Positions 14,591 through 26,126 of a DNA stretch of 37,873 bases are shown here, one piece after another. This stretch comes from a virus. Lineage: Duplodnaviria; Caudoviricetes. The DNA lies in IMG/VR virus record IMGVR_UViG_3300033076_000188, positions 1 to 37,873 of that record; one strand, written 5' to 3'. The notes under the pieces were generated by a model that saw only the letters and a list, made by a program, of their open reading frames with translations, was not told the DNA's origin and made no database searches. Each line of letters starts with the position of its first letter. Position 1 is the first letter of the stretch. Both the position numbers and the translations under genes were made by a program.

Positions 14591-17419
14591 GTGACAATTC
14601 TTTGGATTGACTTTGAGACGCGAAGCCGCTGCGACCTACGCAGCAAGGGCGTCTACAACTACGCACAGGACATCAGCACCGAAGTGCTGTGTATGTCCTA
14701 CGCATTCGACGACGAGGAAGTTAGGACGTGGTTGCCGTCGCAGCCTTTCCCTAGCGCCGTCCGCAATCATACAGGCCAGATCAGAGCGCACAACGCCGCC
14801 TTTGAGCGGTTGATGTTCTGGTATGTCCTGCAAATCCCGTTCAAGCTGGAGCAGTTCTATTGCACCGCAGCGCAAGCCCGTGCCAATTGCGCGCCGGGTA
14901 GCCTTGAGGACGTGGGGCGCTTCGCTGGCACGACGATGAAAAAAGACCATCGCGGCGCGCAGCTAATTAGGCTATTGTCCATCCCGCAGTCAGACGGCAC
15001 GTTCCGCGAAGACGCAGACTTGATGGCCGAGATGATCCGTTATTGCGAGACAGACGTTCTTGCCATGCGGGAGATCAGCAAGGCCCAACGGGGGTTGTCG
15101 CTAGATGAACTGCACGACTATCACGTTAATGAGCGCATCAATGATCGCGGTGTCTTGCTTGACAAACCTTTGGCTTTGGCGGCGGTGCGCTATGCTGAAG
15201 CGGAGTCAATCGAAATACAAGAGATTGTGCGTGAGGTTACTGGTGGCGAAATTACGTCCGTCCGCAGCCCGAAGATGCGGTCGTGGGTTCTCTCGCGCGT
15301 CGGTCCCGAAGCCCTGAAGCTGGCGACAGTCCACAAGGACGGCGAAGCCAAGCTATCCATTGACAAGAACGTGCGCGCCAACTTGCTGGCACTTGCAGAG
15401 GAGAACCCCGATGAAGTCCCGTCAGAAGTTGCGGAAGTCATCCAGTGCGCGGACGATCTGTGGGCATCGTCCGTGGCTAAGTTTTCGCGGGCCGCTAACT
15501 TGGCAGATGAGGAAGATAGCCGAGTTAGAGGAGCGTTTGTATTTGCTGGAGGCAGCGCAACTGGCCGTGCTTCGTCATTTGGGCTTCAAGTCCACAACTT
15601 CCCCCGTCGTTGCGCCGAGGACCCTTCACTAGTCCGTCAGGCTATGGTGCGCGGTCACAAGATCGTGCCGCAATATGGCCGCCGCGTAACGGACGTGCTG
15701 AAGGGTATGCTGCGTCCGTCGCTGACGGCAGCGCCCGGCAAGCATCTGGTCGTCGCTGATTGGGCCGCTATCGAAGCCCGCGTGACGCCGTGGGCGTCCA
15801 ACACCAACAGCGGCGCGGCCAAGCTGGACATCTTCGCTAAGGGCGAGGATGTCTACAAGCACAACGCGGCTGCGACGTTCCGCGTCGCCTACGATCAGGT
15901 TGACAAGGACCAACGCCAGATCGGCAAGGTGCAGGAATTGGCCTGCGTAGCTGAAGATACGTTAGTATTTACATCTAACGGGCTTAAAGCTATTGTGGAT
16001 GTTCAATTAACCGATCTTTTATGGGATGGATCACAGTGGGTAAATCATCAAGGGGTGGTAGCAAGAGGTGTGAAGCCGGTTGTCAATGTGGAAGGCATCG
16101 CGGCGACAAAGGACCATTTGTTCCTAGTCGGCAATTCGTGGATGCAGGCGCAGCAACTCAGTTCAAACGAAAAATTGCGCCGCCGAGCGTTGGAGACCGG
16201 TTCGGAGAGCTTACAGTTGTTGGGTTTGAGTATGGCGCGGCAGGCGGTATCCGATACGCTTTGGCGCAATGCTCTTGCGGGGCTAAACCCAACCGCGTTG
16301 CGCTCTACAACTTACGGCGCGGCGCGTCTACGCGTTGCCCATCATGCGCGCGGAAACAATCTGGTTTTTGGCGAAAAGACTATTTTAAATACGCAGACGC
16401 TTGCCCTGACGATGCCCACAGGCGGCGCCTGCTCAATCGTCTGTCGGCCTGCAAAAACAGATGCCATAACCCAAAAGATCGCGCGTATAAAAGCTATGGT
16501 GGGCGCGGTATTCATGTTTACAAACCTTGGCTCACAGACAAAGCCGCGTTTTTACGGTATGTCCTTTCTCTCAATGGGTGGGATCAACCGCACTTGGAGT
16601 TGGATCGTATCGACGTTAACAAAGGTTACGAACCGGGTAATCTACGGTTCATTACCAGACGCGAAAATTGTAACAACAAACGATCCCTTGCCGAGTTGCA
16701 ACAGCGCGTCATTGAACTTGAGGCACGTCTACGATATTGCACATGCGGGGCCTAACAATCGTTTTATGGTGATGTCGGGCGAAGGCCCAATGATAATCCA
16801 CAACTGCGGCTTTGCGGGCGGCGTGGGTGCGTTTGCGGCGATGGGTCGCATCTACAACATCATCCTGCCCGAAAGCGAAGCCCGCAAGATGGTTGACGCA
16901 TGGCGCAGGGCTAATTCGTGGTCGGTTCCCTATTGGTCGAAGCTGGAGCAATCCTATTTGGCCGCTATGCGTAATCCGGGGCAGGAGTTTTCCGCCGGGC
17001 GCGTGACATATTTATTTGACAAACAGCATCTTTGGTATGCCCTCCCTAGCGGACGTGTGCTATGTTACCCGTTCGCCCGCTTCGATGAAGAGGGCAATGT
17101 CACCTACGCAAAGGCGTCGTGGAAGCCCGCAGCCGATGCGAAGGAATGGCCGCGCGCTCGTCTGTGGCGTGGTCTGGCCTGCGAAAATATCACGCAAGCG
17201 GTGGCGAACGATCTGTTGCGCCATTCGCTGGCGCGGCTTGACGATATGGGGCTTGATGTAGTATTAACAGTTCACGATGAAATTGTTCTTGAGGTATCAA
17301 AAGATCAGTCGGATTGGGCCGCAGAACAACTCGTAAAAGTTATGTGTGATGCGCCTGTGTGGTGCGGTGGTCTTCCGCTTAATGCAGAAGTCGCGGTTAT
17401 GGAAAGATATGGGAAGTGA
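14591..17419 (+). CDS. polA: Family A DNA polymerase precursor (942 aa; 655 aa after removal of a 287-aa intein)
   Basis: Exonuclease motifs IDFETRS, AHNAAFE and YCETDV; TGRAS; motif A DWAAIEAR; motif B RQIGKVQELA|CGFAGG split by the intein; ENITQAVAND; motif C VHDEIV. Confidence 0.95.
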   Translation: MTILWIDFETRSRCDLRSKGVYNYAQDISTEVLCMSYAFDDEEVRTWLPSQPFPSAVRNHTGQIRAHNAAFERLMFWYVLQIPFKLEQFYCTAAQARANCAPGSLEDVGRFAGTTMKKDHRGAQLIRLLSIPQSDGTFREDADLMAEMIRYCETDVLAMREISKAQRGLSLDELHDYHVNERINDRGVLLDKPLALAAVRYAEAESIEIQEIVREVTGGEITSVRSPKMRSWVLSRVGPEALKLATVHKDGEAKLSIDKNVRANLLALAEENPDEVPSEVAEVIQCADDLWASSVAKFSRAANLADEEDSRVRGAFVFAGGSATGRASSFGLQVHNFPRRCAEDPSLVRQAMVRGHKIVPQYGRRVTDVLKGMLRPSLTAAPGKHLVVADWAAIEARVTPWASNTNSGAAKLDIFAKGEDVYKHNAAATFRVAYDQVDKDQRQIGKVQELACVAEDTLVFTSNGLKAIVDVQLTDLLWDGSQWVNHQGVVARGVKPVVNVEGIAATKDHLFLVGNSWMQAQQLSSNEKLRRRALETGSESLQLLGLSMARQAVSDTLWRNALAGLNPTALRSTTYGAARLRVAHHARGNNLVFGEKTILNTQTLALTMPTGGACSIVCRPAKTDAITQKIARIKAMVGAVFMFTNLGSQTKPRFYGMSFLSMGGINRTWSWIVSTLTKVTNRVIYGSLPDAKIVTTNDPLPSCNSASLNLRHVYDIAHAGPNNRFMVMSGEGPMIIHNCGFAGGVGAFAAMGRIYNIILPESEARKMVDAWRRANSWSVPYWSKLEQSYLAAMRNPGQEFSAGRVTYLFDKQHLWYALPSGRVLCYPFARFDEEGNVTYAKASWKPAADAKEWPRARLWRGLACENITQAVANDLLRHSLARLDDMGLDVVLTVHDEIVLEVSKDQSDWAAEQLVKVMCDAPVWCGGLPLNAEVAVMERYGK
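15944..16804 (+). mobile_element. Intein in polymerase motif B (precursor aa 452-738)
   Basis: Block A CVAEDTLVFT, block B ATKDHLFLV (TxxH), block F VYDIAHAGPNNRF, block G IIHN followed by Cys+1. Removal restores KVQELA-CGFAGGVGAF. Confidence 0.93.
16021..16755 (+). CDS. HNH-like homing endonuclease nested in the intein in an alternative frame (true start may be GTG 16138)
   Basis: GDRFGELTVV..QCSCG..LRRG..RCPSC Zn-binding N-terminus; KNRCHNPKDRAYKSYGGRGI; LDRIDVNKGYEPGNLRFITRRENCNNKR nuclease motif. Confidence 0.88.
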   Translation: MGWITVGKSSRGGSKRCEAGCQCGRHRGDKGPFVPSRQFVDAGAATQFKRKIAPPSVGDRFGELTVVGFEYGAAGGIRYALAQCSCGAKPNRVALYNLRRGASTRCPSCARKQSGFWRKDYFKYADACPDDAHRRRLLNRLSACKNRCHNPKDRAYKSYGGRGIHVYKPWLTDKAAFLRYVLSLNGWDQPHLELDRIDVNKGYEPGNLRFITRRENCNNKRSLAELQQRVIELEARLRYCTCGA

Positions 17420-17934
17420 TTTGGCAAACCATACCGAATTGGGACAGATACGAAATTAGCTACACGGGGCGTATTCGTTCGCGCGACATGAAAGTCGGTG
17501 CTAGAAACGGGGCTGTTGCTATGCGTAAAGGCCGCGAACTTGCATTGGTGCGAAAAACAAATGGTTATTGGGCTGTAACGTTGACTGCGGGTAAAAAACG
17601 CAGACAAGAATGCGTTCATAGATTAGTCGCATTAGTATTTCACGGCCCACCGCCGCATCCGAATGCGCACGTTTTGCATAGTGACGGCGACAAAAACAAT
17701 AATGCGGCAAATAACCTTCGTTGGGGGACTCCTGCCGATAACCATGCAGATACTGAGCGGCATGGGCGGCGCTTAAAAGGTGAACGACACCCCCACGCAA
17801 AATTAACTGAGGCTGCTGTGCGAGATATTCGCAGTTCGGATATAGATTCGTCTGCGCTAGCAACGCAATATAATGTGACGCGAGAACATATTTGGGCCGT
17901 GCGGCGCGGGCGCGTTTGGCATCATGTCAACTAA
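17416..17934 (+). CDS. NUMOD4-HNH homing endonuclease
   Basis: WQTIPNWDRYEISYTGRIRS (NUMOD4), VHRLVA..HSDGDKNNNAANNLRWGTPADN (HNH), C-terminal HTH (GERHPHAKLTE). Confidence 0.9.
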   Translation: MIWQTIPNWDRYEISYTGRIRSRDMKVGARNGAVAMRKGRELALVRKTNGYWAVTLTAGKKRRQECVHRLVALVFHGPPPHPNAHVLHSDGDKNNNAANNLRWGTPADNHADTERHGRRLKGERHPHAKLTEAAVRDIRSSDIDSSALATQYNVTREHIWAVRRGRVWHHVN

Positions 17935-25144: not shown

Positions 25145-25651
25145 ATGACATTCTATTCCCTGCCCTTCACCCCGGAGCGCCCACAGGCGACCGAGGCGCG
25201 GTTGGAAGCGATCTATGCCGCCGCCAAATACGGTCTTAAAGGCGACAGCTTGGCAATGGCCGCTGGCTTGACCCCAGCGCAGTATCGGCGCCTGCATGAG
25301 TTCGACCCGCTGGTGGAGATGGCCGAGATGAAGGGCCGCGCTGATGGTGAGTACGCCGCCGCCAAGACGCTGCACGACGCGGCAGCCGACGGCGACAGCA
25401 AGGCGGCCCTTGAGATACTGAAGCACCAGCACGGCTGGAAGGCCGCTCAGTCTGTAGAGATAACCGTAGAGGGCCAAATTTCTGTTCTTGCTGCCTTGGA
25501 AAAAGCGCAACAACGTGTTATAGAAGGCATCTATTCGGAAGTGGAGAGCGCGCCAACGCCCTCCAGCTTCCTGACCGACCAACAAGAGGAATTTGTTGAT
25601 GGCTTCCAACTTGATAACGCAAGAACGCCTGAAAAGTCTACTGACTTATGA
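25145..25651 (+). CDS. terS: Terminase small subunit
   Basis: HTH-like N-terminus and GDSKAALEILKHQHGW motif, upstream of terL. Start placed at ATG 25145. Confidence 0.7.
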   Translation: MTFYSLPFTPERPQATEARLEAIYAAAKYGLKGDSLAMAAGLTPAQYRRLHEFDPLVEMAEMKGRADGEYAAAKTLHDAAADGDSKAALEILKHQHGWKAAQSVEITVEGQISVLAALEKAQQRVIEGIYSEVESAPTPSSFLTDQQEEFVDGFQLDNARTPEKSTDL

Positions 25652-26126
25652 CCCGGACACCGGCGAATTTCGCTGGCGTGTTACTTCCTCTAGTCGCCGT
25701 ACTGCTGGAAGTTTGGCTGGTTGCAGAGATCATTACGGCTATGTCGTGATCCGAATCGACGGAAAACTATACAAAGCTCATAGGTTAGCTTGGCTGTATT
25801 GCTACGGGGTATGGCCGGCTAAAAATTTAGACCACATAAGTCAAACGCCTGACGATAACCGAATAGCTAATTTGCGCGAAGTTGACCAACACGAAAACAA
25901 TCAAAACCGACGCACGCAGAAAAATTCATCTTCTGGCGTTACTGGTGTATCTCTGCATAAAGCTAGCCAACGCTGGCACGCACGCATACATACCCGCGAT
26001 GGTTGTCGTAGCCTTGGCTACTATGCTACCAAGGAAGAAGCTGCTTTAGCGCGGCGCGCAGCCGAACAAACCTACTATTCGTTTAGGACCGAAAATGCAG
26101 ACGCCAGTTTACAGCCCGCAAGATGA
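25599..26126 (+). CDS. HNH-AP2 homing endonuclease
   Basis: LTYDPDTGEFRW, YKAHRLAWLY, LDHI..DNRIANLR..ENNQN, SGVTGVS..RWHARI..LGYY (AP2). GAGGA RBS 8 nt before ATG 25599. Confidence 0.9.
   Translation: MASNLITQERLKSLLTYDPDTGEFRWRVTSSSRRTAGSLAGCRDHYGYVVIRIDGKLYKAHRLAWLYCYGVWPAKNLDHISQTPDDNRIANLREVDQHENNQNRRTQKNSSSGVTGVSLHKASQRWHARIHTRDGCRSLGYYATKEEAALARRAAEQTYYSFRTENADASLQPAR

What the first reader, a model, noticed from the sequence alone, without database searches (positions are those of the whole stretch)
16210..16617. Synonymous codon choice in the nested nuclease keeps the intein frame open
Seen: a stop appears in the intein frame whenever the HNH frame has NTG followed by A, or NTA followed by A/G. 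At each Leu/Val followed by an A-starting codon in this stretch the safe codon is used: CTT-ACA (16210), CTC-AAT (16432), CTC-ACA (16531), CTC-AAT (16570) and GTT-AAC (16615). CTG is abundant elsewhere in the genome, and CTG/TTG are used in this ORF where harmless (CTG-CTC, CTG-TCG, TTG-GAG, TTG-GAT). Inference: both frames are under selection at once, which argues against chance or an assembly error. The sample is small.
Basis: partly seen in the sequence, partly recalled or inferred. Interest (0 to 1): 0.75.

Follow-up and report, generated by a model that had tools for sequence, protein, structure and literature searches.

The report
Intein hiding a self-expressed nuclease gene
A phage DNA polymerase gene carries a predicted self-splicing insert (intein) whose DNA also encodes, one base out of step, a conserved and likely DNA-cutting protein; that gene's codons avoid every stop in the polymerase frame, and a likely promoter and start codon for it are written into the intein's own codons, although the two-genes-in-one layout itself was described in 2025-26.

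Summary
All five codon pairs are as stated. With the nuclease protein fixed, genome-usage resampling keeps the intein frame open in 0.34% of trials (0.1% for the whole ORF). Nine free-standing nuclease genes carry 6-25 stops in that frame.

An open intein frame and 'safe codons' are the same fact, so the decisive evidence is comparative. Of 91 distinct frame-3 relatives, 89 keep the host frame open. In the overlap core, selection acts on the nuclease protein (dN/dS 0.16), and the intein frame shows no constraint beyond having no stop. One broken, probably split relative has six stops, all at the predicted contexts.

New here: the nested gene likely starts at GTG 16036 (ATG/GTG in 82 of 85 relatives). 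Upstream lies a sigma70-like promoter (15968-15996) kept by synonymous choices in intein codons. The active site looks PacI-like (D-R...Y...N). All 80 closest polymerases lack the intein, and near-identical inteins sit in diverged flanks, which fits recent homing.

The layout is known (Gosselin 2025, Phillips 2026; GenBank SO-1, APSE-1), and this scan noted it in at least 26 genomes. Nothing is shown experimentally.

The parts
14591..17419 (+). Family A DNA polymerase gene, one open frame of 942 codons including the intein
   Evidence: PF00476, E 1.7e-16; phrog_17
15944..16804 (+). Predicted intein, 287 aa: Cys1, T55-x-x-H58, terminal His-Asn, then Cys+1 at 16805; inserted at KVQELA|CGFAGG
   Evidence: 80 of 80 closest polymerases read ...KVQEL[AS]|CGF.. 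with no insert; profile of the N-part hits the Neq polymerase split intein, 5oxw, E 0.005
15968..15973 (+). Likely -35 box TTTACA (family TTGACN) in intein codons 9-10
   Evidence: Leu codon 9 is TTG in 63 of 72, against 28 of 218 other Leu codons in intein codons 1-31
15991..15996 (+). Likely -10 box TATTGT (family TATAGT), 17 nt after the -35 box, in intein codons 16-18
   Evidence: third base of codon 16 is T in 69 of 84, against 436 of 1360 elsewhere
16023..16029 (+). Shine-Dalgarno-like GGGATGG, supplied by the conserved intein W-D-G codons
   Evidence: -6.4 kcal/mol duplex with a recalled anti-SD; family mean -6.9, background mean -1.9; largely forced by the intein peptide, so weak evidence
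16036..16038 (+). Likely start codon GTG, made of the last base of intein codon 31 plus TG of Trp32
   Evidence: ATG in 29 of 30, with the preceding codon ending in A across five amino acids; ATG 70, GTG 12 of 85; 23 of 85 have a nuclease-frame stop between the upstream ATG position (window 16021) and this one
16036..16755 (+). Nested nuclease gene in frame 3 relative to the intein, 239 aa: variable N-tail, small beta domain with CxCG...CxxC, His-Me finger core, C-terminal helix
   Evidence: (phrog_374 HNH endonuclease, E 7e-38)
16603..16677 (+). Predicted active site D190 R191 ... G197 Y198 ... N202 ... N211 .. N214, with no catalytic His
   Evidence: D190, R191, Y198, N202, N211 and N214 invariant in 30 of 30; motif in 82 of 86 by strict pattern, the other 4 differ at the residue before Tyr; PacI 3m7k rank 1, Z 5.5
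16210..16617 (+).

Best explanation
A predicted intein in the phage polymerase gene carries a second, conserved gene in frame 3 that likely encodes its homing endonuclease, likely made from its own promoter, ribosome site and GTG start written into the intein's first 32 codons. Any nuclease codon change that would put a stop in the polymerase frame is likely removed by selection, because it would truncate the polymerase. Shown from sequence: the overlap; stop avoidance; purifying selection on the nuclease protein; no amino-acid constraint on the intein-frame linker; position-specific synonymous conservation of the promoter-like boxes and start codon; a patchy, recently transferred distribution. 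Inferred: protein splicing; transcription from 15968-15996; translation from 16036; cutting of the empty polA site by a PacI-like site in which Tyr would stand in for His; and homing by gene conversion.
For: Stop avoidance. In 30 distinct inteins, 0 of 168 Leu/Val-before-A codons end in G, against 249 of 751 elsewhere. Counted as distinct column/codon states, 0 of 47 end in A/G before A, against 80 of 141 before C/T, p 2e-14. Nine free-standing genes use the risky codons freely: 22 of 81 NTG before A. Met followed by I/M/T/N/K, which the overlap forbids, occurs 3 times among 204 internal Met in 120 protein homologues, against 37 expected (the context of those proteins was not checked). Natural control: L294 has an intact nuclease but 6 stops in the intein frame, all at predicted contexts (GTA-A, CTA-A, ATA-G, CTG-A, ATG-A, TTA-A). 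Selection on the nuclease: dN/dS 0.16; 10 of 15 variants among near-identical copies are silent for the nuclease and all 10 change the intein linker. Expression signals: mean promoter match 9.3 of 12 in 85 relatives, 7.6 after synonymous resampling (maximum 8.1 in 2000), and 6.1 in 20 mini or frame-2 inteins. It is the best of 1020 position/spacer/strand combinations (next 6.1) and holds after clustering to 43 representatives. Homing: 80 of 80 closest polymerases are empty, and the window's polymerase sits with 26 empty alleles at SH-aLRT 98 in a quick tree. One contig of run X4 differs at 13 of 861 intein bases but about 46 of 498 flank bases. Inteins 60-66% identical in their N-part sit in exteins 28-72% identical.
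Against: There is no experimental or RNA evidence. The fold match to PacI is modest (Z 5.5, rmsd 3.1, 84 residues; Foldseek found nothing at E<=0.001), and the PacI residue numbers are recalled. The window's own promoter is 9 of 12 and is not individually significant (P 0.06-0.55). Part of the -35 box, the -10 box and the SD is forced by intein residues. The ATA codon at position 17 is not enriched (41 of 85 against 13 of 30). The mini-intein controls come from other hosts with other codon usage. Family members are related, so pooled p-values are overstated. The empty alleles were chosen by closeness to the window only, and the tree is a quick one. Some relatives have a dead nuclease (premature stops in L176, L167 and L168; internal deletion in L309).
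Confidence: 0.75

Rival explanations
1. The nested nuclease is real and selected, but it is made from the polymerase mRNA alone (internal ribosome entry at 16036 or a -1 frameshift), and the promoter-like boxes are a by-product of intein residues.
For: L-T, I-V and W-D-G residues already give a 7.6 of 12 match. The SD-like site is supplied by W-D-G codons. The window's boxes are not individually significant.
Against: Synonymous positions of codons 9 and 16 are conserved towards the consensus, and frame-2 and mini inteins with the same residues score 6.1. The A before Trp32 is kept across five amino acids, which points to initiation rather than frameshifting. 76 of 85 have a nuclease-frame stop upstream inside the intein.
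Confidence: 0.17
2. The nested ORF is a catalytically dead relic or a DNA-binding protein; only the open intein frame is selected, and the element is inherited vertically.
For: It lacks the canonical His general base. Some relatives carry premature stops or deletions. No solved homologue was found by sequence.
Against: dN/dS 0.16. D/R/Y/N residues are invariant in 30 of 30. PacI uses Tyr instead of His (passages of PMC5714182 and PMC4081073). The distribution is patchy, and near-identical inteins sit in diverged flanks.
Confidence: 0.06
3. The insert is a self-splicing RNA intron with an intron-encoded nuclease, as the GenBank note for Sodalis phage SO-1 says, or an assembly artefact.
For: The SO-1 record calls it a 'type I self-splicing intron'. 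Curated intein HMMs are below cut-off (TIGR01445 E 0.21).
Against: No Rfam match. The insert is in frame, stop-free, bounded by C1/TxxH/HN/C+1, and conserved as protein at both ends. An intron would not need stop avoidance. Contigs of three other runs span it.
Confidence: 0.02

Closest known systems
[quoted passage not shown]
   Same: Contiguous intein; nuclease on the same strand in frame 3; unstructured in-frame filler; proposed origin by invasion of a free-standing HEN.
   Different: Here the nuclease is a DR..Y His-Me finger protein (phrog_374), the host is family A polymerase, and the ORF starts inside the splicing domain. The parts I read give no expression mechanism; a promoter and start are proposed here.
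Cyanobacterial dnaX intein with an out-of-frame LAGLIDADG HE (Phillips, DeSimone, Gogarten, bioRxiv 10.64898/2026.09.14.751524; read: passages)
   Same: Same division of selection: dN/dS low in the nuclease frame and high in the intein frame; putative SD; coexisting empty, mini and full alleles.
   Different: Different nuclease family and a chromosomal host; no stop-avoidance test or promoter in the passages seen ('stop codon' occurs 0 times).
ShiLan domain, a hidden HNH in a phage methylase (Arsenault 2025, PMC11855218; read: abstract, Discussion)
   Same: Out-of-frame HNH with a GTG start inside an open host frame; asks how such genes are translated.
   Different: It has no intein and proposes leaderless initiation; here there is a predicted intein plus SD-like and promoter-like sites.
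Polymerase inteins of Jerseyvirus (SETP3, Ent1), Dhillonvirus (SO-1, EP23) and APSE phages
   Same: Jerseyvirus and SO-1 carry the same element: same frame, start and motifs, about 48-50% nuclease identity. GenBank annotates the nested ORF in SO-1 (gp39) and in APSE-1 (P46).
   Different: The Ent1 record describes only 'splicing domains' and SO-1 calls it an intron. APSE-2 uses another polA site and frame 2.
PacI restriction endonuclease (PDB 3M7K; His-Me finger group 20 of PMC5714182, passages read)
   Same: Top of 48,161 chains (Z 5.5); His absent, with a conserved Tyr in the loop after D-R; Cys clusters.
   Different: 18% identity; extra N-terminal beta domain and C-terminal helix; activity and oligomer state untested.
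Fractured genes: split inteins with an endonuclease gene between the halves (Dassa 2009, PMC2677866; read: passages)
   Same: Relatives L294 and L234 look like this state, with the same nuclease family.
   Different: The window's intein is contiguous, so stop avoidance applies.

Membership tests
Class 1 intein | In-frame precise insertion absent from close alleles | tested here: met
   80 of 80 closest polymerases join ELA/ELS to CGF directly
Class 1 intein | Cys/Ser1, block B TxxH, terminal His-Asn, Cys/Ser/Thr +1 (motif definitions recalled) | tested here: met
   C1, T55 and H58 invariant in 19 of 19; HN|C or HN|S in the 31 distinct inteins
Class 1 intein | Match to curated intein/Hint models or fold | tested here: inconclusive
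   Pfam none; TIGR01445 E 0.21, below cut-off; profile hit to Neq split intein E 0.005; single-sequence model unusable, pLDDT 30
Class 1 intein | Protein splicing activity | not testable with these tools
   needs expression
Non-canonical intein with an out-of-frame HEN (Gosselin 2025 type) | Nuclease ORF on the same strand in frame 3, with the host frame open | tested here: met
   89 of 91 distinct frame-3 loci have the host frame open (L234 and L294 do not; for L154 openness was checked only to a mis-called end at codon 216)
Non-canonical intein with an out-of-frame HEN (Gosselin 2025 type) | Endonuclease VII-like nuclease | tested here: inconclusive
   best family match is phrog_374 HNH and best fold PacI; EndoVII is not among the listed hits, which does not exclude it
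Canonical HNH homing endonuclease (I-HmuI type) | Catalytic His general base after the metal-binding Asp | tested here: not met
   Arg at that position in 30 of 30 and in 109 of 109 motif-matching proteins among 120; no HNH_3 hit
PacI-like His-Me finger nuclease | beta-beta-alpha core with Tyr replacing His, Asp and Asn as metal ligands | tested here: inconclusive
   D190, Y198 and N211 invariant; PacI rank 1 at Z 5.5 only; residue-level equivalence rests on recalled PacI numbering, and the primary paper is not held
Homing endonuclease | Patchy distribution and element less diverged than its flanks | tested here: met
Homing endonuclease | Cleaves the empty cognate site | not testable with these tools
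   needs an assay
Group I intron | Rfam group I structure | tested here: inconclusive
   no Rfam match at E<=0.1 over 15500-17300; protein-level intein motifs and stop avoidance argue against an intron

The most novel reading that the evidence does not exclude
The N-terminal codons of this intein lineage form a ready-made expression cassette (-35 in L-T, -10 in x-I-V, SD in W-D-G, start on N-Trp). A few synonymous changes switched it on and let a captured nuclease be expressed out of frame as a separately transcribed gene. The nuclease is a tyrosine-dependent, PacI-type homing endonuclease, hidden in well over a hundred sequenced Salmonella and E. coli phage records whose intein is usually annotated without it.
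Probability: 0.5. Interest if true: 0.7.

Novelty: new variant of a known kind. Interest (0 to 1): 0.5.

Why it matters
It turns a published open question, how out-of-frame intein nucleases are expressed and whether they still home, into a concrete test. The predicted promoter, start and catalytic Tyr can be mutated silently in one frame. The same element is present in cultured Jerseyvirus and Dhillonvirus phages. It also corrects annotation (an intein seemingly without endonuclease, or a 'type I intron') and gives a clean natural example of 'stay open' selection on an overlapping frame, with a probably split relative as control.

Tried and rejected
ATG 16021 (the longest-ORF start) was rejected as the family start: 23 of 85 relatives have a stop right after it and it has no SD. 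GTG 16138 was rejected: it is not conserved.

Amino-acid selection on the intein-frame linker was not found. ATA at codon 17 first looked enriched, but is not against other intein Ile codons; ACA at codon 10 is borderline, p 0.05-0.14. No start-masking hairpin: z 0.01.

Pfam gave nothing for the intein or nested nuclease and NCBIfam nothing above cut-off. Sequence searches of solved structures gave only noise for the nuclease. Foldseek against PDB gave no hit at E<=0.001; I-HmuI and PacI appear only as weak rows. The single-sequence intein model was unusable. No RNA holder was listed. Run X1 may be the source sample and was not counted as support. The tree is the unfinished quick version.

Literature searches found no paper on this polA element's nested nuclease or on an intein-internal promoter: SETP3+intein+DNA polymerase; Jerseyvirus+intein (one of two papers checked by passages); Salmonella phage+mini-intein (0 papers); intein+internal promoter+homing endonuclease+phage (two unrelated listings); out-of-frame searches. 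The library lacks most subscription papers, including the original Ent1, SETP3 and APSE-1 genome papers as far as these searches show. The supplements of the bioRxiv preprints were not seen and may list related loci.

Rows dropped before the count of 85: L234, L294, L300, L176, L309 and L293 from the 91. Loci without a matched intein N-terminus were left out; among them the close homologues still showed 0 stops in the shifted frame.
Full report
Setting. The window is a complete-looking phage record with P22-like portal and coat genes, a terminase and a family A DNA polymerase at 14591-17419. The polymerase carries a 287-codon insert at 15944-16804 that begins with Cys and ends His-Asn before Cys. 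All 80 closest polymerases from IMG/VR (the best 80 of 351) lack it and join the two sides directly. Its block B T-x-x-H is invariant in 19 aligned relatives, and a profile of its N-part hits the Nanoarchaeum polymerase split intein at E 0.005. Curated intein HMMs stay below cut-off. It is a predicted class 1 intein; splicing is inferred. A second ORF in frame 3 runs through it to 16755 and matches phrog_374, HNH endonuclease.

The observation. Other usage tables give 0.4% or less. The two free-standing HNH genes of the window have 11 stops each in that frame, and seven free-standing homologues have 6-25. The reverse test, with the intein peptide fixed, leaves the nuclease frame open in 0.02%. 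An open polymerase frame and safe codons at risk sites are one fact, so this alone does not show that the nuclease is selected.

Relatives. 28 of 28 first loci have the same nesting, offset and two open frames. GenBank holds the element in Jerseyvirus, Dhillonvirus, Pseudomonas, Vibrio and EBPR phages; 207 records match the nuclease at E<=1e-12, of which 147 are Salmonella phages, and the weakest ones are free-standing genes. With further scans there are 111 distinct inteins: 91 with the nuclease in frame 3, 10 in frame 2 and 10 with none. Among 30 distinct inteins, no Leu/Val codon before A ends in G (0 of 168, against 249 of 751 elsewhere). As distinct column states, 0 of 47 end in a purine before A, against 80 of 141 before C/T. 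Locus L294 keeps the nuclease but has six stops in the intein frame, each at a predicted context, and a possible SD plus TTG restart before the C-terminal intein part. It is probably a split intein in which the constraint has lapsed (the split is my inference).

Which frame is selected for what. In the overlap core, mean identity is 66% for the nuclease and 35% for the intein frame. dN/dS in 15 close pairs is 0.16 against 1.3, and nuclease-synonymous divergence (0.32) is not below that of the non-overlapping intein start (0.19). Where the nuclease N-tail overlaps block B the pattern reverses. Among near-identical copies in public runs, 10 of 15 overlap variants are silent for the nuclease and change the linker. 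So the nuclease is under protein-level selection, and the linker needs only to stay open. Phillips et al. 2026 report the same contrast for the dnaX intein (passages).

How the nested gene is likely expressed. In 29 of 30 relatives the last base of intein codon 31 plus Trp32 spells ATG; the window has GTG at 16036. Codon 31 ends in A whether it is Glu, Ser, Ala, Gln or Lys. In 85 intact relatives the triplet is ATG 70, GTG 12; in 20 control inteins ATG 4, GTG 7. The W-D-G codons give an SD-like site, which the peptide largely forces. A consensus scan found TTTACA-17-TATTGT at 15968-15996. The family reads TTGACN-17-TATAGT at exactly this place: mean match 9.3 of 12, against 7.6 after synonymous resampling and 6.1 in controls. 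It is the top of 1020 position/spacer/strand combinations. The signal sits in TTG at codon 9 and T at codon 16, not in ATA at codon 17, and it survives clustering to 43 representatives. The window's copy alone is not significant, and no RNA data were found.

The nuclease. The model (pLDDT 70, first 46 residues unresolved) has PacI as best match among 48,161 chains, at a modest Z 5.5 over residues 113-217. Foldseek found nothing significant in PDB but many phage HNH-annotated proteins in BFVD. The His of HNH is Arg throughout, and D190, R191, Y198, N202, N211 and N214 are invariant. Reviews state that PacI uses Tyr in place of His (passages). The residue-level match rests on recalled numbering.

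Homing. The window's polymerase falls among empty alleles (quick tree, SH-aLRT 98). One contig differs by 1.5% inside the intein and about 9% in the flanks. Similar inteins sit in exteins 28-72% identical to the window's. Decayed forms exist: premature nuclease stops in L176, L167 and L168, an internal deletion in L309, and mini-inteins at the same site such as L046.

Prior knowledge and verdict. Inteins with a nuclease in frame 3 were described by Gosselin et al. 2025 (sections read), and hidden HNH genes by Arsenault et al. 2025. GenBank already annotates the nested ORF in SO-1 and APSE-1. This scan noted the layout in at least 26 genomes, and embedded promoters in other inteins (AI notes, not evidence). 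My searches found no paper on this polA lineage's nuclease, start or promoter, in a library that lacks most subscription journals and the preprint supplements. Verdict: real, a new variant of a known kind. The added value is the testable expression cassette, the PacI-like site and the split control. Interest 0.5.

Noticed in passing
L294:776-1900: Same nuclease family at the same polA motif, with six stops in the intein frame and a possible GGAG+TTG restart before the C-terminal intein part: probably a split intein (fractured gene).
   Followed up: partly
L234:1032-2280: Split intein at a second polA site with a related nuclease between the halves; the C-part begins MKVYDL in another frame.
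   Followed up: partly
L044 (APSE-2), L045 (Caulobacter phage RW), L035 and L226: Related nucleases nested in frame 2, at a second polA site (L044, L045) or at the window's site (L035, L226); this suggests several independent captures. Their promoter match at the frame-3 position is mostly low.
   Followed up: partly
L309:1040-1500: A 153-aa intein formed by internal deletion of the nuclease core, with both frames still open and the ATG kept: a decay intermediate.
   Followed up: partly
L036 (Salmonella phage SS3e): Frameshifts place the nuclease in frame with part of the intein N-terminus and break the polymerase into three annotated ORFs; could be sequencing error.
   Followed up: no
window 17416-17934: Free-standing NUMOD4-HNH gene overlapping the polymerase stop; found at the same place in only 2 of the 80 closest polymerase loci (some loci are truncated), so probably a second mobile nuclease.
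   Followed up: partly
window 25593-26126: Free-standing HNH-AP2 gene overlapping the start of the terminase large subunit gene (26095).
   Followed up: no
L029 (Sodalis phage SO-1): GenBank labels this element a 'type I self-splicing intron'; the sequence has intein motifs instead.
   Followed up: yes
L037:884-1498 and L038:354-1034: Free-standing homologues are unannotated (Salmonella phage SAP012) or annotated with a truncated start (Ralstonia phage Gerry).
   Followed up: no
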